From a virus (taxonomy: Duplodnaviria > Heunggongvirae > Uroviricota > Caudoviricetes): a stretch of 21,425 bases of DNA. Below, piece by piece: positions 4,557 through 14,422 of the stretch (positions are counted from its first letter, which is position 1; each line of letters begins with the position of its first letter). The notes under the pieces were generated by a model. It saw only the letters and a program-made list of their open reading frames with translations, searched no databases and was not told where the DNA came from. The stretch lies in the IMG/VR virus record IMGVR_UViG_2802429219_000008; one strand, 5' to 3'. A program made the position numbers and the translations under genes.

Positions 4557-5132
4557 TTAAGGATTCATTAAGCAATGTCGCAACCACCAATAAATCCGCT
4601 TAAGAACATGAAAATTGATTACTGGTATAAAGCGCTTACAGTTGTTGGCGCTGCGTTGTTTGTCTTTAATGGAACGTCTTTTTTTGACAGATATCCCGTT
4701 GTTCCATTGGGTTTTTTGTCCTCCGGCATCTTTTTTATTGGTTTGGGGGAGTGGATTAATCACCCTCTCAAAGTGAGATTTATTGGTCCTGGAGTTTGGA
4801 CTCGTGGATATAATCGTTCTTCGTGCGCACTCGGTATCATCTTCGACATACTTGGTTGTTTCCTGATTGTTACAGGAGTCGTCAAGTTCTTCTGATGTAA
4901 AACCGCAAATGGGGCACGTAACGGGAATTTTGAAAAGCGTTTCTCCGGGTTCCAGAACAAAATTTTCTGCGGTCTGATTTTGCTTCTCATATTTGTGCTC
5001 CGCGTCATTGTGAGAGCACATTCTTATTCTGAGTGCCTGTTTAAACTCACTGAAGCTGAGAGCTTCTTCGCCTTCGGCAAGGCCTTCGAAGTATTCTTCG
5101 TAAGCCTTTTCCATGATTGTGTCGAAATCCAT
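4557..5132 (-). CDS. ydfB/ydfC-like protein (start 1 nt after ydfA stop); C-terminal extent uncertain
   Basis: Internal ATG (5130-5132) of ORF 4557..5174(-). The first ~85 residues (MDFDTIMEKAYEEYFEGLAEGEEALSFSEFKQAL...CPICGF...) are acidic and protein-like. The last ~110 residues are K/N/R-rich low complexity and exactly antisense to + ORF 4575..4895, so the true stop may differ. Confidence 0.4.
   Translation of the reverse strand: MDFDTIMEKAYEEYFEGLAEGEEALSFSEFKQALRIRMCSHNDAEHKYEKQNQTAENFVLEPGETLFKIPVTCPICGFTSEELDDSCNNQETTKYVEDDTECARRTIISTSPNSRTNKSHFERVINPLPQTNKKDAGGQKTQWNNGISVKKRRSIKDKQRSANNCKRFIPVINFHVLKRIYWWLRHCLMNP
4575..4895 (+). CDS. candidate 3-helix small membrane protein (106 aa), antisense to the ydfB/C-like ORF; alternative to the tail of 4557..5132
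   Basis: ORF track 4575..4895(+). AAGGA 11 nt upstream of ATG. Three ~19-residue hydrophobic segments separated by Pro/Gly/charged loops. Mutually exclusive with the C-terminal half of the minus ORF. Confidence 0.3.
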   Translation: MSQPPINPLKNMKIDYWYKALTVVGAALFVFNGTSFFDRYPVVPLGFLSSGIFFIGLGEWINHPLKVRFIGPGVWTRGYNRSSCALGIIFDILGCFLIVTGVVKFF

Positions 5133-5133
5133 A

Positions 5134-5289
5134 TCACTCACCTGAGTTTCTTTCCAGCCAGCGACGGGCACCATTTTCGGTTTTAAACGTTTTGCTTTTG
5201 GTATACGTCATCGCGGTGAACGTGCCGTCCTGGTTGGGGAACACGCCACATACCAGAGATTCGCTGTTGCCAAGATCGATAGTATCCAT
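5134..5289 (-). CDS. ydfA: YdfA-like protein (51 aa, DUF1391-type)
   Basis: Internal ATG (5287-5289) of ORF 5134..5367(-) gives MDTIDLGNSESLVCGVFPNQDGTFTAMTYTKSKTFKTENGARRWLERNSGE. GAGG Shine-Dalgarno upstream. First gene downstream of dicA on the same strand. Confidence 0.8.
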   Translation of the reverse strand: MDTIDLGNSESLVCGVFPNQDGTFTAMTYTKSKTFKTENGARRWLERNSGE

Positions 5290-5455
5290 GCTGACCTCAT
5301 TTCCCCTTAACGCCGGGGTAGCGGAACTGTTTGCTGAGAACACCGTGCGGTGTCTTGATGCAAACAAGATTAGCTATGACTAACATATTGGTCAAGTGAT
5401 TTTGTATGTTATGACTAACATAATTAATGTAGTAAAAGATAACTCATTGATGATG
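5290..5455. promoter_or_regulatory. promoter/operator region of the dicB (ydfA-dicF-dicB) operon with repeated TATGACTAACAT motifs
   Basis: Two copies of tatgactaacat at 5375-5386 and 5410-5421 (second embedded in the palindrome atgttatgactaacat); a related ttatggctaacaat lies in the dicA/dicC intergenic region. Position matches the DicA-repressed dicB promoter. Confidence 0.45.
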
Positions 5456-5863
5456 TTATCTTTTATTTGTCCGCTGACGGGCTTTTAGTAATTCTTCAAA
5501 GAGTTTATTGAAGTTTTTTACTCGAGCTCGCATTTCGGCGAGCTGGGTATCCTGTTCTGATTCTGGCAGTGCATTAAACAGCTCAAGGAGCTCTAGTTCT
5601 TTGGGAGATAAGGCAACTGGCTTCTCAACAGGTGGTGTTGGTTGCTTGTCTTCATCGCCAAATAGAATCCATGTTGGTGAGCATTGCAATACTTTGCTGA
5701 GGGCAAAAAGGTTCTTCCCTGTAGGTTCACTATCATCCCGTTCCCATTGTGATACAGACACATGGGAGATTTTCAGGGCTTTAGCAAGAGACCTTTGGGT
5801 GTGTTTGAGGTTTTTCCGACGATACCTAATGCGTTCGCCGATAGTTAAATTTTTTGTATCCAT
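5456..5863 (-). CDS. dicA: repressor DicA (cI/c2-like HTH_XRE repressor, 135 aa)
   Basis: ORF track 5456..5863(-): MDTKNLTIGERIRYRRKNLKHTQRSLAKALKISHVSVSQWERDDSEPTGKNLFALSKVLQCSPTWILFGDEDKQ..., recognised as DicA. Divergent from the cro-like dicC. Confidence 0.9.
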   Translation of the reverse strand: MDTKNLTIGERIRYRRKNLKHTQRSLAKALKISHVSVSQWERDDSEPTGKNLFALSKVLQCSPTWILFGDEDKQPTPPVEKPVALSPKELELLELFNALPESEQDTQLAEMRARVKNFNKLFEELLKARQRTNKR

Positions 5864-5946
5864 AGTTAGCTAATGCTAAATCGTATTGACTATGTTTTTG
5901 TTAACATCTATTTTGTTAGTTATGGCTAACAATCAAGGTGTTTTAA
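5864..5946. promoter_or_regulatory. divergent dicA/dicC promoter-operator region
   Basis: Palindrome TTAGCTAA next to the dicA ATG. Candidate sigma70 promoter for dicC: TTGACT (5886-5891), 17 nt spacer, TATTTT (5909-5914). Operator-like ttatggctaacaat at 5920-5933. Confidence 0.55.
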
Positions 5947-6177
5947 ATGCTTAAAACTGACGCTCTTTTGTATTTCGGTTCAAAAACAAAACTTGCACAA
6001 GCAGCTGGTATTCGTTTGGCTTCGCTTTATAGCTGGAAAGGGGATTTAGTTCCCGAAGGTCGCGCGATGCGTCTACAGGAGGCATCTGGCGGGGAGCTTC
6101 AGTATGACCCCAAAGTTTATGACGAATATCGTAAGACGAAGCGGGCGGGGCGGTTGAACAATGAAAATCACTCCTGA
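5947..6177 (+). CDS. dicC: Cro-like regulator DicC (76 aa)
   Basis: ORF track 5947..6177(+): MLKTDALLYFGSKTKLAQAAGIRLASLYSWKGDLVPEGRAMRLQEASGGELQYDPKVYDEYRKTKRAGRLNNENHS, recognised as DicC. AAGGTG Shine-Dalgarno. Confidence 0.9.
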   Translation: MLKTDALLYFGSKTKLAQAAGIRLASLYSWKGDLVPEGRAMRLQEASGGELQYDPKVYDEYRKTKRAGRLNNENHS

Positions 6178-6682
6178 ACAGGCTCGTGAGGCTCTGGATG
6201 CCTGGATATGTCGACCAGGAATGACACAGGAGCAGGCGACGATATTAATCACTGAAGCATTCTGGGCTTTGAAAGAGCGCCCGAACATCGATGTTAAGCG
6301 TGTCACAGATGAAGGTGGCGCGGTTGATCAGCGAGCGCTTGGCGTTAATCGAGTGAAGATATTCGAACGCTGGAAGGCTATCGACACTAGGGATAAGCGT
6401 GAAAAGTTCATGGCGCTAGTGCCTGCAATTATGGAGGCTATCCGGATTAATGATTTCAGGTTATATCGTGAAATTAGTGACGGAAAAAGCATCACGTATA
6501 TGATCGCCGGGTTAAACAAAGAATATGGCGATGTGGTGGAGTCCGGACTGCTTTTTGCTGATCCTGCCGTAGTGGATCGTGAAACTGACGAACTTATAGA
6601 AAAAGCAATTGCTTTCAAGCTTGCGTATCGACAGCAATACCAACAAAAAGCTGGATGGAATTATGAGTCTTCTTTTTGCTGA
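6161..6682 (+). CDS. YdaT-like protein at the cII position (173 aa)
   Basis: ORF track 6161..6682(+). ATG overlaps the dicC 3' end by 17 nt. Segment FERWKAIDTRDKREKFMALVPAIMEAI resembles the YdaT family as I recall it. Position matches cII/ydaT of lambdoid prophages. Confidence 0.5.
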   Translation: MKITPEQAREALDAWICRPGMTQEQATILITEAFWALKERPNIDVKRVTDEGGAVDQRALGVNRVKIFERWKAIDTRDKREKFMALVPAIMEAIRINDFRLYREISDGKSITYMIAGLNKEYGDVVESGLLFADPAVVDRETDELIEKAIAFKLAYRQQYQQKAGWNYESSFC

Positions 6683-7628
6683 ACGCCCACTGGTTATAAA
6701 CACGCAGCTGGCAATGAAAATCGGCTTAAACGAAGCCATTGTTTTGCAACAACTGCACTACTGGTTGAGAGATACCAACTCCGGTATGGAATGTGATGGT
6801 GTTCGCTGGATTTATAACACAACGGAACAATGGCTGGAACAGTTCCCATTCTGGTCAGAGTCAACGTTAAAGCGCGCGTTTGCAAGTCTGAAAACGCTGG
6901 GGCTTTTGCGTTGTGAAAAGCTCAATAAATCAAAGCGCGATATGACCAATTTCTACACGATCAACTATGGGAGCGAGCTTTTAGATGGTGGCAAATTGAA
7001 CGAATCCATCGGTTCAAAATGCGCCGCTCCATCAGGTCAAAATGACACGATGGAAGAGGTCAAAATGAAACGCTCCATTGGTTCAAAACGACCCAATGTC
7101 ATCGGGTCAAAATGGCCTGATGATCTTACAGAGAATACAACAGAGATTACTACAGAGAATAAAAACACTTTTCGTCCGGAAGCTTCGCAACCGGACCCGC
7201 AGACGACTGAACAGGATTTTTTAACCCGGAACCCCGACGCGGTTGTGTTTAGTGTGAAAAAACGCCAGTGGGGTAGCAGGGAGGATTTGGCGTGTGCGCA
7301 GTGGATTTGGGGGCGGATCGTGAACCTTTACGAACAGGCTGCCAGCGACGATGGAGAGATCATGCGACCAAAAGAGCCTAACTGGACAGCCTGGGCCAAT
7401 GACGTGCGCACAATGCGGATGCTGGATGGCAGAAGCCACAGACAAATTTGCGAAATGTTTGGTCGGGTACAGCGGGATCCATTCTGGGTAAAAAACATCA
7501 TGAGCCCGTCAAAACTCCGCGAAAAATGGGACGAACTGGTCATCCGCCTGGGACGTTCACCTGTACAACGTTGTGTGAATCATATTTCTGAACCGGATAC
7601 AGAAATTCCGCCTGGTTTCAGGGGATAA
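6663..7628 (+). CDS. phage replication initiation protein with DnaT-like C-terminal domain
   Basis: ORF track 6609..7628 (TTG start); the ATG at 6663 (MSLLFAERPLV...) is preferred because it begins just before the upstream gene's stop (6680-6682). C-terminus ...NHISEPDTEIPPGFRG parallels the DnaT C-terminus (...SEPDSQIPPGFRG). Iterons lie inside the gene. Confidence 0.7.
   Translation: MSLLFAERPLVINTQLAMKIGLNEAIVLQQLHYWLRDTNSGMECDGVRWIYNTTEQWLEQFPFWSESTLKRAFASLKTLGLLRCEKLNKSKRDMTNFYTINYGSELLDGGKLNESIGSKCAAPSGQNDTMEEVKMKRSIGSKRPNVIGSKWPDDLTENTTEITTENKNTFRPEASQPDPQTTEQDFLTRNPDAVVFSVKKRQWGSREDLACAQWIWGRIVNLYEQAASDDGEIMRPKEPNWTAWANDVRTMRMLDGRSHRQICEMFGRVQRDPFWVKNIMSPSKLREKWDELVIRLGRSPVQRCVNHISEPDTEIPPGFRG
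7005..7120. repeat. iteron array (putative origin of replication) inside the replication gene
   Basis: Five copies of GG(T)TCAAAA(T/C)G starting at about 7011, 7035, 7058, 7080 and 7104, i.e. 22-24 bp spacing, followed by an A-rich stretch with repeated acagaga. Reflected in the protein as repeated SIGSK/IGSK. Confidence 0.5.
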
Positions 7629-7668
7629 GTGTTGATTTCAGGTCATGAGGTAATTTTAAGGGGGACTT

Positions 7669-8085
7669 GTGGCAAAAGTTTTTACACAAGAAGAGCGGGA
7701 AAAAATTAAAGGGCAGGTGGTGGAACTCGTGCGCCAGAGCGGTCGTGAGACGCTACGGCAACTGGAAGCTAAAACAGGTGCGACAAGATATCTGATGAGC
7801 GTTCTTGCCAGAGAGCTGGTTGCCAGTGGCGATGTATATAACTCTGGCTACGGGTTATTCCCGTCTGAACAGGCACGTAAGGACTGGATAAAGGCCCGCA
7901 AAAAGATGTCGAAAGCAGCAGTGAAAAAAAAGAGCGACCCGGACCTGGTTTATTCATTACCAGACGGAGAAATACGCCGCTACGACAGGCGTCTGAACAT
8001 AATCTGTCGCGAGTGCCGGAAGAGCGAAGTTATGCAGCGTGTACTGGCGTTCTATCAGGGATATTTTCAGGAGGTGATGGAGTGA
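7669..8085 (+). CDS. hypothetical protein (138 aa)
   Basis: ORF track 7669..8085(+). GTG start with AGGGGGA upstream. Protein-like composition with a possible HTH (RETLRQLEAKTGATRYLMSVLARE). Confidence 0.5.
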   Translation: MAKVFTQEEREKIKGQVVELVRQSGRETLRQLEAKTGATRYLMSVLARELVASGDVYNSGYGLFPSEQARKDWIKARKKMSKAAVKKKSDPDLVYSLPDGEIRRYDRRLNIICRECRKSEVMQRVLAFYQGYFQEVME

Positions 8086-8387
8086 GGGTGAGAGTTTATA
8101 TTGCCGGTCCAATGACCGGGTATAAAAATTTCAACCGTGAGGCGTTTCACAAGGCGGAAGAGGAACTGAAACGGGAAGGGCATACCGTCTTAAGCCCGGC
8201 AGTACTTCCGGACGGACTGACACAGCCACACTACATGGATATTTGTATGGCAATGATTCGTTGTGTGGATGCGATTTACATGCTGAAAGGCTGGCAGCGG
8301 TCAGCAGGTGCTAAGGCAGAACTGGCACTGGCGGAGAAGCTGGGGCATGTGGTTATTTTCCAGGAGGCAACCAGTGAGCAAAATTAA
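8082..8387 (+). CDS. DUF4406-like (nucleoside 2-deoxyribosyltransferase-like fold) protein
   Basis: Frame of ORF 8013..8387. Proposed GTG start at 8082, eight nt after AGGAGG (8069-8074) and overlapping the upstream stop. VRVYIAGPMTGYKNFNREAFHKAEEELKREGHTVLSP matches the DUF4406 signature as I recall it. Confidence 0.55.
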   Translation: MRVRVYIAGPMTGYKNFNREAFHKAEEELKREGHTVLSPAVLPDGLTQPHYMDICMAMIRCVDAIYMLKGWQRSAGAKAELALAEKLGHVVIFQEATSEQN

Positions 8388-8700
8388 TTATCAGACGCTA
8401 TTGTTGACTTTGTCGAGAGTAAATTCGGGCAAGACAAGGATATGAAACCGGATAACGTATGTCATGGAGATGCTACTGAAATAATTAGCCATCATTGGGA
8501 GTATGGTTCGCACTACATGAATTAATAGGGGGGAGCTATACACGCAATGTGATGTGAATGTTAATTTGTTAGTGCTGCTTGTTGACCTTATGTTGGTTTT
8601 TGTGGTTGTTTGTAGGTGTCCTGCGATTGGTATTGTGTTTATTTTTTGTGGGGTGAAATGATGATGTATTGTTTTTCTTACTAAGAAATAAGGAATTATA

Positions 8701-11341: not shown

Positions 11342-12094
11342 ATGAACCTTGAAGCTTTACCAAAATATTACTCCCCAAAATCTCCAAAATTGAGTGATGA
11401 CGCACCGGCGACAGGCTCGGGTGGTTTAACAATAACAGATGTGATGGCTGCGCAGGGGATGGTGCAGTCGAAAGCTCCGCTTGGTTTTGCCTTATTCCTG
11501 GCAAAAGTTGGTGTTCAGGATCCTCAGTTTGCGATTGAAGGTCTGCTCAATTACGCGATGGCAATGGATAATCCGACATTGAACAAATTGAGTGAAGAAA
11601 TCCGGTTACAGATCATCCCTTACCTTGTGAATTTTGCCTTTGCTGATTATTCCAGGTCTGCGGCAAGTAAGGCTCGCTGTGAGTATTGTGCTGGTACTGG
11701 ATTTCATAATGTATTGCGCGAAGTGGTGAAACACTCCAGAAGTGGGGAATCTGTTATCAAGGAAGAGTGGGTGAAGGAACTATGTCAGCATTGCCATGGT
11801 AAGGGAGAAGTCAGCACAGCGTGCAGAGGGTGTAAGGGGAAAGGTATTGTCCTGGATGAAAAAAGAACCCGGCTTCATAGCACGCCTGTTTATAAGGTTT
11901 GTGGGCGTTGCAATGGAAACCGGTTTAGTCGTTTACCAACGACACTGGCGCGGTGTCATGTCCAGAAGCTGGTACCAGACCTGACGGATTATCAGTGGTA
12001 CAAAGGATATGCAGATGTCATTGATAAACTGGTTACAAAGTGCTGGCAGGAAGAAGCATATGCTGAGGTGCAATTAAGAAAAGTGACGAGATAA
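11342..12094 (+). CDS. quuQ: late-gene antiterminator Q (phage 82/21-type)
   Basis: ORF track 11342..12094(+), 250 aa. GGAG Shine-Dalgarno. Zinc-finger motifs (CEYCAGTG...CQHCHGKG...CRGCKGKG...CGRCNG). Recognised as the QuuQ-type antiterminator. Confidence 0.85.
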   Translation: MNLEALPKYYSPKSPKLSDDAPATGSGGLTITDVMAAQGMVQSKAPLGFALFLAKVGVQDPQFAIEGLLNYAMAMDNPTLNKLSEEIRLQIIPYLVNFAFADYSRSAASKARCEYCAGTGFHNVLREVVKHSRSGESVIKEEWVKELCQHCHGKGEVSTACRGCKGKGIVLDEKRTRLHSTPVYKVCGRCNGNRFSRLPTTLARCHVQKLVPDLTDYQWYKGYADVIDKLVTKCWQEEAYAEVQLRKVTR

Positions 12095-12855
12095 ATGATT
12101 TTCACCGAACGATGGCGACATAACGATTGTATTTTCTAAGGAAACGTGCAAAGAGTTTTCCAATGATGAGCCTTATATGCATACCGGTGGAAAATATCAA
12201 TAAGCCGCGCAGAGTGGTTTTTTTGTGGACATAAACTTTGTGCAGAACGGTAACCATTATGGTTGCCGTGAATGCAGTTTTTTTACATTGCTGGCTTTTT
12301 TAGATTTGTGTTAGTTATTGATATTAACAAGAAGGGGAAAAGACATGCTAAAACGGCAGGATATGAAGGAAACGGTTATGCGTGAATGTTCCAGTGTGAT
12401 TAACCATATCATCTGGAGAAGCCATCCTGATGCAGGGAAGAGGTAACAGTAACGCGCATCAATCAGGCTGCAAATAAATGGCTTACGCCGGAAATCTGGC
12501 TATCGATGTATTACCGGTTTGTTACCCATGAAGAAAATTAAGGTGATAACGAAACTGATTTTATTGGTGTCTTGTCAGAGTGTTGCGATGAAACTTGTGT
12601 TGGCAGTGCAGGGAAAACAGTAGGATGAAAATTATAAATTGCTTTAAATGAGCTTGATTTTCCTCATGTTATGAGATATTTGTCTTATATTGCTGGTTAA
12701 TTATGAAAATTTTTGTAAATCTACAGCAATAAAATCCATATTAATTAAAGCACTAGATGCGTTTCTGATTTGTGCATGAAACATACATATCATAATGATT
12801 AATTGCATCTATAATTACAGATACAGCATTGTGCTGTTAAAAAACTGGAGTCCCC

Positions 12856-12963
12856 ATGAATACATTATATGTAAGTGATTCAAATGAAAAATCTCATGAC
12901 AGGAATAAAAACAATGAGGATGGTAAGGGTAAGGATAATAAAAAAGACAACCGGAAAGAGTAA
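12856..12963 (+). CDS. micro-ORF (35 aa, K/N/D-rich)
   Basis: Not in the ORF track (too short). ATG at 12856 with GGAG 5 nt upstream; perfect TATAAT at 12810-12815. MNTLYVSDSNEKSHDRNKNNEDGKGKDNKKDNRKE. Speculative. Confidence 0.25.
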   Translation: MNTLYVSDSNEKSHDRNKNNEDGKGKDNKKDNRKE

Positions 12964-12998
12964 ATAATCTTTCCTGCATAAAAATACTAGGGTGGAAT

Positions 12999-13118
12999 AT
13001 GTCAGAACATCCAGATTTTGATGACCGTAAGCCTGATGATGAGCCCGTTGAGCGTCCTGATGAGGGGCAACCATTGAACCCTTTTTCACCGGATGATAAA
13101 AGAGATCCTATTATTTAG
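12999..13118 (+). CDS. micro-ORF (39 aa, acidic/Pro-rich)
   Basis: Not in the ORF track. ATG at 12999 after AGGGTGG. MSEHPDFDDRKPDDEPVERPDEGQPLNPFSPDDKRDPII. Ends 50 nt before a strong intrinsic terminator. Speculative. Confidence 0.25.
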   Translation: MSEHPDFDDRKPDDEPVERPDEGQPLNPFSPDDKRDPII

Positions 13119-13170
13119 ATATAGCAGAATATAGCCGTTTAAAGTAGGTTGTGTTTTGTTGCTATCCTTA

Positions 13171-13199
13171 AACCACCTCCACAGGAGGTGGTTTTTTAC
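13171..13199 (+). terminator. Rho-independent terminator
   Basis: Perfect 10-bp stem AACCACCTCC / GGAGGTGGTT with ACA loop followed by TTTTTT on the + strand. Confidence 0.65.
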
Positions 13200-13254
13200 T
13201 AATGGAACATTAATTGGCAGATGTGATTGTGTACGACTTATGGGAGGCTTAAGA

Positions 13255-13440
13255 TTATTTTCTGCCAATAATAAAACCAAGCGTTAACCCTATGCTTAGA
13301 GCAACCACCACGCTAGTCAGTGGATAATTTCTAAATTTATCTTTAACGTTTTCTTTGCCTCCCTGCAAAGCATCGTCAGCACATGATGCATATTTTTTGA
13401 CAGTATTAACTATTTCGTTTTCAGATTGATTTGAAGTCAT
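13255..13440 (-). CDS. short DUF883-like (ElaB/YqjD/YgaM-type) tail-anchored membrane protein (61 aa)
   Basis: Internal ATG (13438-13440) of ORF 13255..13539(-) with AGGA 9 nt upstream. MTSNQSENEIVNTVKKYASCADDALQGGKENVKDKFRNYPLTSVVVALSIGLTLGFIIGRK; the C-terminus resembles the DUF883 membrane anchor. AT-rich rare codons (ATA, AGA). Confidence 0.45.
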   Translation of the reverse strand: MTSNQSENEIVNTVKKYASCADDALQGGKENVKDKFRNYPLTSVVVALSIGLTLGFIIGRK

Positions 13441-13893
13441 GTTTGAAGTCCTGATGTTAAGTGGCTTTTTAATTATAGCAGATATGCTTTCAATGATAGG
13501 GCGGAGAGTTGTTATTGAGGTGATACTATGACCACTCAATCAACATTACATAAAATGACGTTTACTCCTGTTTGGCACAGTAGCAGAATTTTGCTTCTGC
13601 TACTGAAGTCGCTTTAGCACTAGAATATGCAGATGGATAAAGCAGTTCAGCGTATGTACTGCGTCATGCATATCGGTCTTGCAGATATGACGAGAAGGGG
13701 AGACAAGGTGTGTGTAATGTAGAAGTCTTTAAAGTGCTGTCTGGGATAACTCTATGCTGAAGTGCAATTGATAAAAGTAACACGATAAAGGTTTTTCAAT
13801 GAAGATGGTAACGTGATGCTTGCATTTTTCAAAAAATATGGATAAAATTTTTTCAACGATGGGCTTTGTATACCCGACGTTAAGAAAAAGTAG

Positions 13894-13920
13894 AAAACCC
13901 GCTGATGAGCGGGTTTTGTG
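13894..13920. terminator. bidirectional intrinsic terminator-like hairpin
   Basis: AAAACCCGCT-GATG-AGCGGGTTTT, with T-rich sequence on both strands after the stem. Confidence 0.5.
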
Positions 13921-14209
13921 CTTTAAATGGGGCAATGGTAATGTTGAATCTCATCCCGGGACTCATGTCTGTTAACTTATTATTTAGCTGGTGACTTGGT
14001 TATTTGCCTGATGTTTAAAATGTTTTCTTCCAGTACAATGTCCCTAAACACAATGAGTCTGCTTATTATATTATTAGCAGAGCTATTACGGCCAAAGTAC
14101 AGCATAAGCTTTTAAAGCCAATCAACCAGTCATCAAGACAGACGGGGTTATTCATAAAAACTCTCCATGTGTGATCCGATGGGGCCTGAAATTAAAGCTT
14201 TAATATAGC

Positions 14210-14422
14210 TCATGAAAGGTAAACATTGGCAGCTGAAGGGCCACGCAGACCATTTATCCGGCAAAATTCCACGCGTAATCCGGTGGTAATTTCTTCTGCA
14301 TCGCGGAGATTGAGCGCTGAAACATGAAGCTGGACATCGATACGACCATCGGATGGGGTGATAAGACCCTTGCCGCTTTTGCCGTCAAAGGTTTTGACAA
14401 TTCCTGTCATTTTACGGGACAA
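14210..14422 (-). CDS. cspF: cold-shock protein family member CspF
   Basis: ORF track 14210..14422(-): [70 protein letters not shown]. The annotated start is TTG; an in-frame ATG lies 4 codons in. Divergent from cspB. Confidence 0.8.

What the first reader, a model, noticed from the sequence alone, without database searches (positions are those of the whole stretch)
6663..8387. Replication module built on a DnaT-like C-terminus with no helicase loader gene
The initiator ends ...SEPDTEIPPGFRG, closely matching the C-terminus of primosomal protein DnaT as I recall it. No lambda P / DnaC-like loader follows; instead come a 138-aa unknown protein and a DUF4406-like protein. This suggests recruitment of the host PriA-type primosome rather than a phage helicase loader.
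Basis: partly seen in the sequence, partly recalled or inferred. Interest (0 to 1): 0.4.

Follow-up and report, generated by a model that had tools for sequence, protein, structure and literature searches.

The report
Loader-less phage initiator with DnaT tail
A common E. coli prophage starts replication with a single lambda-O-like protein and no helicase-loader gene, and its last ~20 residues copy the tail of host protein DnaT, a tail that in phages goes only with DnaC-type loaders or with no loader, so it probably hooks the host's DnaC-DnaB complex.

Summary
The 321-aa protein (6663-7628) ends ...SEPDTEIPPGFRG and matches DnaT in 14 of its last 20 residues, but only there. Its globular C-terminal domain is the lambda O C-terminal domain, not DnaT's DNA-binding domain. 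Its N-terminus is a winged-helix initiator domain. Four or five 23-bp-spaced iterons lie inside the gene, so this is a lambda-type origin. No helicase or loader gene lies in the window from the integrase gene to the start of the terminase gene; the two downstream genes are DUF977 (Ren-like) and DUF4406.

Comparative data change the interpretation. In 72 of 74 phage loci with a DnaC-like loader, the upstream gene ends in IPxGFRG, on several unrelated protein bodies. A motif-first scan found the tail followed by a DnaC-like gene (36) or no loader (35), never by lambda P or DnaB. Lambda-P-linked relatives carry a different tail (29/29). The host dnaT-dnaC junction has the same layout. The window keeps a 3' remnant of a deleted dnaC-like gene.

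The best reading is that the tail couples the initiator to DnaC-type loaders, here host DnaC. Recruitment of PriA is less supported. The loader-less module type is already published but unexplained.

The parts
6663..7628 (+). Replication initiator gene (321 aa), a lambda-O-type origin-binding protein; RefSeq names it 'hypothetical protein' WP_000054495.1
   Evidence: ORF. PHROG 391 'replication initiation O-like', E 2e-92. No Pfam family. 95-98% identical genes in isolated phages HannyBb, mEp460_ev081 and PhiR42_1.
6663..6986 (+). N-terminal winged-helix DNA-binding domain (aa ~10-108)
6987..7187 (+). Region coding the disordered linker (aa 109-175), which holds the origin iterons
   Evidence: pLDDT 23-30. 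The repeated peptide SIGSK / VIGSK mirrors the DNA repeats.
7007..7114 (+). Iteron array: CATYRGKTCAAAAYG at 7007, 7030, 7076 and 7100, plus a degenerate copy near 7053, spaced 23-24 bp; putative ori
   Evidence: the repeat finder family D1. Four matches to the consensus (itself derived from these copies), none elsewhere in the 21.4-kb window. Lambda has the same layout, with four iterons inside gene O.
7127..7170 (+). A-rich tract next to the iterons (TACAGAGAATACAACAGAGATTACTACAGAGAATAAAAACAC); candidate unwinding region
   Evidence: Sequence; repeats D4/D5. Its role is inferred by analogy with lambda ori.
7209..7550 (+). Helical C-terminal domain (aa ~183-296), homologous to the lambda O C-terminal domain
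   Evidence: tblastn to lambda O, 933W O and phi80 gp15: 36-39% identity, E 1e-18 to 1e-20. 2916 cluster representatives hold this domain. No detectable relation to the DnaT core.
7563..7625 (+). Disordered C-terminal tail VQRCVNHISEPDTEIPPGFRG; a short linear motif (N-x-[IV]-S-x-P-D-x-x-I-P-x-G-F-R-G, then COOH) shared with host DnaT
   Evidence: pLDDT 30-40. I-P-x-G-F-R-G is kept in diverged relatives while the linker before it varies and is kept in 106 DnaT orthologues. Synonymous codon variation in loader-less loci.
7629..7668 (+). Intergenic spacer holding the 3' remnant of a deleted dnaC-like gene (last ~4 codons plus stop, about 7641-7653) and the DUF977 ribosome-binding site
   Evidence: Local alignment with L002: homology resumes at the last codons and stop codon of the 248-aa DnaC-like gene and runs into DUF977. 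About 12 nt stand where L002 has most of its 747-nt dnaC-like gene plus a 6-nt spacer.
7669..8085 (+). DUF977 / LygF / 'Ren-like' small winged-helix protein (138 aa, GTG start); not a loader
   Evidence: Pfam PF06163, E 1e-30; PHROG 142. It follows the DnaC-like gene as well in L002, so it does not replace a loader.
8082..8387 (+). DUF4406 protein (nucleoside 2-deoxyribosyltransferase-like); not a loader
   Evidence: Pfam PF14359, E 4e-37; PHROG 355.
5456..6682 (.). Immunity and early-control context: DicA-like repressor (5456-5863, -), DicC/Cro (5947-6177, +), YdaT / cII-like protein (6161-6682, +) overlapping the initiator start
   Evidence: Pfam, PHROG 163, RefSeq annotation of the 100%-identical strain C11.

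Best explanation
This is an 'O-only' lambdoid replication module. The 321-aa protein is a lambda-O-type initiator. Its N-terminal winged-helix domain binds the 4-5 iterons that lie inside its own gene. Its C-terminal domain is the lambda O C-terminal domain. Its disordered last ~20 residues (..SEPDTEIPPGFRG) are a docking peptide specific for DnaC-type helicase loaders. An ancestor carried its own dnaC-like gene directly after the tail, and that gene was deleted. The phage now uses the tail to bring the host DnaB-DnaC complex to the opened origin. Host DnaT carries the same tail directly upstream of dnaC, so the phage uses the same handle that DnaT uses in replication restart; tail and dnaC probably entered the host together from a phage module.

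Shown here: the domain anatomy, the iterons, the absence of a loader, the deletion remnant, and the tail-to-loader association. Inferred: iteron binding, physical contact between tail and DnaC (or DnaB-DnaC), and use of host DnaC.
For: 1. Initiator identity. PHROG O-like, E 2e-92. C-terminal domain 39% identical to lambda O, E 7e-19. Winged-helix N-terminal domain resembles plasmid RepA_N initiators. Iteron cluster inside the gene, as in lambda.

2. Loader first. Of 74 IMG/VR loci with a DnaC-like gene, 72 have an upstream gene ending in IPPGFRG (one reads GFSG). These upstream genes include at least four otherwise unrelated bodies (Pfam naming of tailed bodies, some from the later motif scan). 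The loader is a full-length DnaC homologue of E. coli DnaC, E 6e-76.

3. Motif first. A scan for D-x-x-I-P-x-G-F-R-G-stop gave 80 listed matches, all ending in a true stop codon and 77 at the end of an ORF of >=120 codons. Of 71 evaluable loci, 36 are followed at +3 to +21 nt by a DnaC-like gene, 35 by no loader, 0 by lambda P and 0 by DnaB.

4. Same C-terminal-domain family, one genome per species. W-acidic tails (lambda O itself ends ..NTDWIYGVDL) are followed by lambda-P-like genes in 29/29 loci. DG[ST]F tails are followed by IstB-like AAA+ genes in 7/7. GFRG and its variants have no loader in 16/18 and a DnaC-like gene in 2/18. Fisher p = 7e-12.

5. The host dnaT-dnaC junction (..IPPGFRG-TAA-cg-ATGAAAAA) is collinear with the phage junction (..IPPGFRG-TAA-cgggcc-ATGAAAAA).

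6. The window keeps the last codons and stop of a dnaC-like gene.

7. The peptide, not only the DNA, is under selection. In loader-less loci the Arg and Gly codons vary synonymously (AGG/CGG/AGA/CGC; GGG/GGA/GGC/GGT) while the residues stay the same. The tail is kept in independent loader-less lineages with different bodies, including phage LLS O..VDTKIPEGFRG.

8. Viability. Complete genomes of the isolated phages HannyBb and LLS carry a loader-less, GFRG-tailed initiator and no loader or helicase anywhere.

9. Literature. DnaT in the preprimosome structures was modelled from the 84-153 crystal fragment, and how DnaB/DnaC is recruited is stated to be unknown (PMC13377028; PMC11087952).
Against: No physical or genetic test of tail-DnaC binding exists, and none could be run here.

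The tail codons lie 3-21 nt from the dnaC-like start, so part of the association is simple genetic linkage. In loader-linked loci the last two codons (AGG GGG) also look like the Shine-Dalgarno sequence of the loader gene.

The authors of the preprimosome structure favour the DnaT N-terminal domain as the recruiter of DnaB/DnaC.

The tail also contributes to cooperative ssDNA binding by DnaT in vitro (PMC4132743).

Brezellec et al. 2017 describe DopC, which has a 'DnaT_C motif' and is paired with a lambda-P-like DopE. If that motif is the tail, it would be an exception.

Many IMG/VR loci are near-duplicates from E. coli prophages, so the counts overstate the number of independent events.
Confidence: 0.55

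Rival explanations
1. The DnaT-like tail recruits the host PriA/PriB/DnaT restart primosome, for example by binding PriA, and that primosome then loads DnaB at the phage origin.
For: The tail is shared with DnaT, and DnaT works in the PriA pathway. No phage loader is present. The acidic-then-I-P-x-G-F pattern loosely recalls the SSB C-terminal tip (DDDIPF), which binds PriA; this is from my own memory and was not tested. LLS-type loader-less phages grow better with RecBCD (PMC12315714), and recombination intermediates are PriA substrates.
Against: In the preprimosome structures DnaT contacts PriA through its C-terminal domain, modelled from the 84-153 crystal fragment, and PriB through its linker. 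The tail is not part of that model. The window protein lacks both of those DnaT parts. The tail is almost always directly upstream of a DnaC-like gene when a loader is present, and tail type follows loader type. A PriA-binding role does not predict either pattern.
Confidence: 0.12
2. The tail is a general ssDNA-binding or oligomerisation aid. It would stabilise the opened origin, as it raises the cooperativity of ssDNA binding by DnaT, without a specific protein partner. The helicase would arrive by another route, for example through the lambda-O-like C-terminal domain contacting DnaB or DnaC.
For: Removing DnaT residues 154-179 doubles the Kd for dT30 and lowers the Hill coefficient (PMC4132743). 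The tail is disordered.
Against: This does not explain why tails sort by loader family (P-like 29/29 with W-acidic tails; DnaC-like or none with GFRG). It also does not explain why the tail is grafted with 100% identity onto unrelated bodies directly before dnaC-like genes.
Confidence: 0.1
3. Linkage or translational artefact. The tail is conserved mainly because its codons carry the ribosome-binding site and coupling signal of the downstream dnaC-like gene, and in loader-less phages it is only a leftover.
For: In loader-linked loci the last codons are AGG (19/22) and GGG (21/22), which form AGGGGG 5-24 nt before the loader ATG, most often 9-10 nt. The window shows a recent deletion of the loader gene.
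Against: In loader-less loci the same residues are kept with synonymous codon changes. The conserved stretch spans about 17 residues, far beyond a ribosome-binding site. Independent loader-less lineages with different downstream DNA keep it (LLS, L171/L172, L182). DnaT orthologues keep I-P-x-G-F-R-G across genera.
Confidence: 0.08
4. Decayed module. The prophage is cryptic, loss of the loader gene simply disabled replication, and the tail has no current role.
For: The window lies at the Qin prophage site, which holds a defective prophage in K-12 (my own background knowledge; one search shows only the location and the Qin-type genes). The identical strain C11 has a frameshifted DUF977.
Against: The same loader-less module (95-98% identical) is found in isolated phages HannyBb, mEp460_ev081 and PhiR42_1. 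72 of 73 evaluable closest IMG/VR loci are loader-less. Zheng et al. 2025 count 34 of 314 lambdoid phages as O-only, including the plaque-forming LLS.
Confidence: 0.04

Closest known systems
Phage lambda O/P replication module
   Same: [quoted passage not shown] Gene order is repressor, cro, cII-like, O.
   Different: There is no P gene. The N-terminal domain is another winged-helix type (not PF04492). The C-terminal tail is ..IPPGFRG instead of lambda's ..NTDWIYGVDL. In this family P-like loaders always go with the W-acidic tail (29/29).
O-only replication modules of lambdoid phages (phage LLS; Zheng, Casjens, Davidson, Amundsen & Smith 2025, PMC12315714)
   Same: A single O homologue with no helicase or loader; reported for 34 of 314 lambdoid phages and described as not yet understood. 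LLS O also ends ..VDTKIPEGFRG.
   Different: LLS O has HTH_36 plus Phg_2220_C domains instead of the lambda O C-terminal domain. The passages of that paper I read do not mention the DnaT-like tail, and a full-text search for 'PPGFRG' or 'DnaT-like' found no phage paper.
Prophage [initiator]-[DnaC-like] modules (Rac ydaU-ydaV type; L002)
   Same: An initiator about 96% identical to the window's (amino-acid comparison), with the identical tail, then DUF977 and DUF4406 in the same order. The window keeps the 3' end of the loader gene.
   Different: Those modules keep a 248-aa DnaC homologue between the initiator and DUF977. The window lacks it.
E. coli DnaT (primosomal protein I) and the dnaT-dnaC operon
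   Same: The last ~20 residues (14/20 identical; motif S-x-P-D-x-x-I-P-x-G-F-R-G-COOH) and the position directly upstream of a dnaC gene in the ancestral phage layout.
   Different: The window protein has no DnaT N-terminal domain, no PriB-binding linker and no PF17948 DNA-binding domain. It is an origin-specific initiator, not a restart factor. A different phage protein (in L301) does carry a true PF17948 domain plus the tail.
DopC/DopE (Brezellec et al. 2017, PMC5509034)
   Same: A lambda-O-type N-terminal HTH fused to a 'DnaT C-terminal motif' in place of the usual O C-terminus. This is the published precedent for O/DnaT chimeras.
   Different: DopC is a domesticated chromosomal gene, paired with a lambda-P-like DopE, with no iterons reported. 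Whether its motif is the tail or the three-helix domain was not checked here.
RepA_N plasmid initiators (pSK41 / pTZ2162 RepA; PDB 4PQL, 4PTA, 5KBJ)
   Different: 13-19% sequence identity, Gram-positive plasmids, unrelated C-terminal domains.

Membership tests
DnaT (primosomal protein I; NCBIfam NF002770, Pfam PF17948) | Three-helix DnaT DNA-binding domain (PF17948, DnaT residues ~84-153) | tested here: not met
   No Pfam hit at E<=10. hhalign of the cores gives probability 0.3%, E 0.24. All 120 DnaT homologues carry PF17948, and so does the phage protein in L301.
DnaT (primosomal protein I; NCBIfam NF002770, Pfam PF17948) | N-terminal oligomerisation domain and acidic PriB-binding linker | tested here: not met
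   No similarity outside residues 301-321 by phmmer, BLASTP or hhalign. The N-terminus is a winged-helix domain.
DnaT (primosomal protein I; NCBIfam NF002770, Pfam PF17948) | Whole-protein score above the NCBIfam equivalog cut-off (201 bits) | tested here: not met
   16.3 bits.
DnaT (primosomal protein I; NCBIfam NF002770, Pfam PF17948) | Flexible C-terminal tail ..S-E-P-D-x-x-I-P-P-G-F-R-G | tested here: met
   14/20 identical to E. coli DnaT. The motif grammar is the same as in 106 DnaT orthologues.
Lambda-O-type phage replication initiator | Origin iterons inside the initiator gene, next to an A/T-rich tract | tested here: met
   Four exact-consensus copies plus one degenerate copy at 7007-7114, spaced 23-24 bp, none elsewhere in the window. 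Binding by the protein was not tested.
Lambda-O-type phage replication initiator | C-terminal domain homologous to the lambda O C-terminal (P-interacting) domain | tested here: met
   tblastn to lambda O: 39% identity, E 7e-19. PHROG 391/277 O-like.
Lambda-O-type phage replication initiator | N-terminal Phage_rep_O domain (PF04492) | tested here: not met
   No Pfam hit, whereas lambda O hits PF04492 at E 6e-36. The domain is a different winged-helix type, RepA_N-like.
Lambda-O-type phage replication initiator | Cognate loader or helicase gene directly downstream (P, DnaC-like or DnaB-like) | tested here: not met
   DUF977 starts 40 nt after the stop. No loader in the window.
O-only lambdoid replication module (Zheng et al. 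2025) | An O homologue with no helicase or loader gene in a lambdoid phage genome | tested here: met
   Window, from the integrase gene to the start of the terminase gene. The complete genome of the 95%-identical phage HannyBb.
Helicase loaders (DnaC/IstB AAA+, lambda P, DnaD/DnaB_2, DciA), as candidate identities for the 138-aa and DUF4406 proteins | Sequence membership in a loader family | tested here: not met
   DUF977 and DUF4406 only; PHROG 'Ren-like' and 'nucleoside 2-deoxyribosyltransferase'; no NCBIfam hit. DUF977 co-occurs with a DnaC-like gene in L002. A new kind of loader cannot be excluded by sequence alone.

The most novel reading that the evidence does not exclude
The conserved I-P-x-G-F-R-G C-terminal peptide is the long-sought handle by which DnaT, and any phage initiator that carries it, recruits the DnaB-DnaC complex. 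It is one member of a 'tail code' in which interchangeable C-terminal peptides on phage initiators specify the loader family:
- W-acidic tails go with lambda P.
- GFRG tails go with enterobacterial DnaC.
- DG[ST]F tails go with beta-proteobacterial IstB-like loaders.

Loader-less (O-only) enterobacterial phages are explained as phages that shed their own dnaC and use host DnaC through this peptide. The host dnaT tail and dnaC were domesticated together from such a phage cassette.
Probability: 0.45. Interest if true: 0.75.

Novelty: new member of a known kind. Interest (0 to 1): 0.6.

Why it matters
Two open questions meet here.

First, about one in nine lambdoid phages have an O-only replication module. 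Its mechanism is stated to be 'not yet understood' and has not been studied experimentally (PMC12315714).

Second, how the PriA/PriB/DnaT preprimosome recruits DnaB-DnaC is stated to be unknown. DnaC has never been shown to contact any restart protein (PMC13377028, PMC11087952).

The comparative pattern gives one concrete, cheap hypothesis for both. A ~10-20-residue peptide shared by DnaT and these phage initiators is the coupling element for DnaC-type loaders. It can be tested with peptide binding, tail deletions in DnaT and in culturable phages (HannyBb, LLS), and structure prediction of complexes.

If the hypothesis is wrong, the finding is an ordinary and very common prophage replication module.

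Tried and rejected
- Pfam on the initiator gave nothing at E<=0.01 and only noise at E<=10. This is explained: Pfam models the lambda O N-terminal domain only.
- Homology of the whole C-terminal ~80-140 residues to DnaT was rejected by BLASTP, hhalign with and without tails, and Pfam.
- DUF977 or DUF4406 as a hidden loader: rejected.
- A loader elsewhere in the prophage: rejected.
- 'The tail replaces a loader', meaning tail and loader should anti-correlate: rejected, because L002 and 36 of 71 motif-scan loci have both.
- A genome-contig scan with the very diverse alignment A2 failed because no stretch was conserved enough. It was redone with A3.
- The first collection pattern had too few fixed bases. 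The redone pattern requires D at -3 and I-P, so it misses D-Y-S-Q-[IV]-P and V-P variants.
- The supplement of Zheng et al. listing the 34 O-only phages is not held, so I could not check all their tails.
- P0272, a possible natural DnaT-DnaC fusion for a fold test, turned out to be an assembly chimera that lacks the tail.
- No multimer prediction was possible with the tools.
Full report
**Where the window comes from.** The 21.4-kb window is a lambdoid prophage of E. coli, integrated next to rspB at the Qin site. Region 5400-8500 is 100% identical to strain C11 apart from one indel. Gene order is Arm-type integrase, excisionase, an 823-aa exonuclease, dicB region, DicA-like repressor (5456-5863, -), DicC/Cro (5947-6177), YdaT/cII-like protein (6161-6682), the initiator (6663-7628), DUF977 (7669-8085), DUF4406 (to 8387), hok/rem region, DUF968-HNH, antiterminator Q, lysis genes and terminase. 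Parts of the 3.1-kb region occur in 4648 of 5426 complete E. coli genomes, and 333 genomes hold at least 80% of it. The same module, about 95-96% identical in DNA, is in the isolated phages PhiR42_1, HannyBb and mEp460_ev081. In mEp460_ev081 an automatic pipeline already named the gene 'Primosomal protein I'.

**Checking the observation.** The protein does end ...QRCVNHISEPDTEIPPGFRG. I wrote E. coli DnaT from memory and confirmed it as identical to PDB 9ZBT chain D. BLASTP gives 14/20 identities over the last 20 residues and nothing else. phmmer against the PDB and the NCBIfam DnaT model also align only residues 301/302-321. Pfam's DnaT domain PF17948 does not hit at all. I built a 120-sequence profile of the C-terminal region from a search of 1.84 billion cluster representatives, which found 2916 representatives at E<=0.001. 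I built a 106-sequence DnaT profile from a second search. hhalign aligns only the last 15 residues. With the tails removed, probability is 0.3%. So the 'DnaT-like C-terminus' is a ~20-residue tail, not a domain.

**What the protein is.** The AF2 model (mean pLDDT 60, 24-sequence alignment) shows four parts:
- a winged-helix domain (aa 10-108, pLDDT 75-89);
- a disordered linker (aa 109-175);
- a helical domain (aa 183-296);
- a disordered tail (aa 297-321).

**No loader.** DUF977 (PHROG 'Ren-like', also named LygF) and DUF4406 (nucleoside deoxyribosyltransferase-like) are not loaders. tblastn with DnaC, phage DnaC-like, IstB-like, lambda P and DnaB queries finds nothing in the window. It also finds nothing in the complete genomes of phages HannyBb and LLS (annotation). 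Of the 73 evaluable closest IMG/VR loci (>=98% identical initiator), 72 are loader-less, with DUF977 starting about 40 nt after the stop.

This module type is published. Zheng, Casjens et al. 2025 report that 34 of 314 lambdoid phages encode only an O homologue. [quoted passage not shown] Their phage LLS has an O protein with different domains (HTH_36 plus Phg_2220_C). I found that it too ends ..VDTKIPEGFRG.

**The polymorphism that changes the interpretation.** In other E. coli prophages (L002), an initiator about 96% identical with the same tail is followed, 6 nt after its stop, by a 248-aa protein, then by DUF977 and DUF4406. That protein is a full-length DnaC homologue (E 6e-76 to E. coli DnaC of 6QEL). 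In the window, homology to L002 resumes at the last ~4 codons and stop codon of that dnaC-like gene. About 12 nt stand in place of most of the 747-nt gene and its 6-nt spacer. The loader-less state is therefore derived by deletion.

**Tail and loader go together.** Four tests bear on this.

1. Starting from the loader. Of 74 IMG/VR loci with a DnaC-like gene (85-100% identical to L002's), 72 have an upstream gene ending in ..IPPGFRG (one reads GFSG). These upstream genes include bodies that share nothing else with the window protein: an HTH_36 variant, DUF1376/YdaU-like proteins, and two 'YPxRAG' types. Some of them carry a tail 100% identical over 20 residues.

2. Starting from the motif. All 80 listed loci had a true stop codon, and in 77 the motif closed an ORF of >=120 codons. 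Of 71 evaluable loci:

| Gene after the tail | Loci |
|---|---|
| DnaC-like gene at +3 to +21 nt | 36 |
| No loader or helicase | 35 |
| Lambda P | 0 |
| DnaB | 0 |

Downstream of the 34 loader-less loci where an ORF could be called lie DUF977 (25) or other small winged-helix proteins, a Dam methylase, or a RuvC-like gene.

3. Within the lambda O C-terminal-domain family, sampled at one genome per species (66 loci, Pfam):

| Tail class | Gene directly downstream |
|---|---|
| W-acidic (WNxxEAWExxL / NTDWxxG) | lambda-P-like, 29/29 |
| DG[ST]F (Oxalobacteraceae) | IstB-like AAA+, 7/7 |
| Strict GFRG | DnaC-like 2/9, none 7/9 |
| GFRG variants (GWKGA, GFRS, GFRV) | none 9/9 |

Lambda O itself ends ..LTNTDWIYGVDL and is followed by P. 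Loader-less initiators are thus concentrated in the GFRG class (Fisher p = 7e-12). All GFRG-class loci with a credible host label are from Enterobacterales, the order that has DnaC and DnaT.

4. The host operon has the same junction. It reads ..ATTCCACCGGGATTCAGAGGGTAAcgATGAAAAA(dnaC). The phage reads ..ATTCCGCCGGGGTTCAGGGGGTAAcgggccATGAAAAA. dnaC is already held to be a domesticated phage gene (PMC5109545).

**Is this only linkage or a ribosome-binding site?** In loader-linked loci the last two codons are almost fixed as AGG GGG, a plausible Shine-Dalgarno sequence for the loader gene. In loader-less loci they vary synonymously (R: AGG 8, CGG 3, AGA 3, CGC 2; G: GGG 6, GGA 8, GGC 1, GGT 1), while the residues are kept. 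In diverged relatives the linker before the motif changes freely but I-P-x-G-F-R-G stays. DnaT orthologues show the same grammar, with only x varying. The peptide itself is therefore under selection, including where no phage loader exists. Many loci are near-duplicates, so the counts are not independent events. The several distinct bodies and lineages are the stronger argument.

**Mechanism.**
- Shown: initiator anatomy, iterons, absence of a loader, deletion remnant, tail-to-loader association, and existence of isolated phages with this module.
- Inferred: the N-terminal domain binds the iterons and the protein opens the A-rich flank, as lambda O does. The tail binds a DnaC-type loader, and in this phage that loader is host DnaC in the DnaB6-DnaC6 complex, which is then loaded at the origin.

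The inference fits the literature. DnaT in the preprimosome structures was modelled from the 84-153 crystal fragment, which docks on PriA. The step that recruits DnaB/DnaC 'remains unknown'. [quoted passage not shown] Against it, those authors favour the DnaT N-terminal domain as recruiter, and the tail also aids cooperative ssDNA binding.

**Comparison and novelty.** The element is a common, already sequenced member of the published O-only class. O/DnaT chimeras have a precedent in DopC (PMC5509034). I found no statement in the searchable literature of three things: the restriction of the resemblance to a tail peptide, its strict pairing with DnaC-type loaders or no loader, and the wider 'tail code'. 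Subscription journals are not covered, for example Wrobel & Wegrzyn 2002 on lambdoid replication modules. I file the element as a new member of a known kind. It carries a testable hypothesis that bears on an acknowledged gap in replication restart.

Noticed in passing
L164-L233 (genome-contig loci); lambda O in L234:87-986: Across the lambda O C-terminal-domain family the last ~12 residues fall into discrete classes that match the downstream loader. WNxxEAWExxL / NTDWxxG tails go with lambda-P-like genes (29/29), DG[ST]F tails in Oxalobacteraceae with IstB-like AAA+ genes (7/7), and GFRG tails with DnaC-like genes or nothing. This looks like a general 'tail code' for initiator-loader pairing.
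   Followed up: partly
L301 (IMG/VR contig IMGVR_UViG_2636415435_000005), ORF ending at the motif at 6958-6990 (-): A 271-aa phage protein carries a genuine DnaT DNA-binding domain (PF17948, E 4e-18) plus the GFRG tail on a phage-type N-terminus. No loader gene follows, and a RuvC-like gene lies downstream. It is a closer phage relative of DnaT than the window protein and a candidate for the source of DnaT's C-terminal half.
   Followed up: partly
L002:5212-5245 and other loader-linked loci: The last two tail codons (AGG GGG) form a Shine-Dalgarno-like AGGGGG a few nucleotides (5-24, most often 9-10) before the dnaC-like ATG, and the host dnaT-dnaC junction is similar (AGAGGG). The tail codons seem to serve two purposes where a loader follows.
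   Followed up: partly
window 7669-8085 vs strain C11 (L003:16270-16685): DUF977 is intact in the window (138 aa, full-length Pfam match) but annotated as frameshifted in the otherwise identical strain C11, owing to a 1-bp indel in the 3.1-kb comparison.
   Followed up: no
L165 (MAG 'Bacillota bacterium') and L170 (MAG 'Veillonella parvula'): Contigs binned into Gram-positive or Negativicutes MAGs carry this E. coli prophage module at 95-97% protein identity. This is most likely binning contamination, not a host-range signal.
   Followed up: no
window ~12000-15600: A low-GC stretch (35-39% against ~48% elsewhere) lies between antiterminator Q and the lysis genes. It holds two cold-shock-protein genes (14210-14422 -, 14723-14938 +) and small unannotated ORFs, and looks like a typical moron/cargo region of Qin-type prophages.
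   Followed up: no
window 11342-12094 (+): The Q antiterminator (PF03589) carries a DnaJ-type CXXCXGXG zinc-finger segment (PF00684, E 2e-8).
   Followed up: no
window 4557-5174 (-) and 4575-4895 (+): A 205-aa ORF with no Pfam family overlaps a 106-aa hydrophobic ORF on the opposite strand, in the region between dicB and the repressor. Which one is real was not resolved.
   Followed up: no
downstream of replication genes in the window, L002, L169, L171, L182, L239, L258, L312: A small winged-helix protein (DUF977, PerC-like, DUF1627 or unnamed) almost always follows the replication gene or genes, whether or not a loader is present. Its position matches lambda ren; its function is unknown.
   Followed up: no
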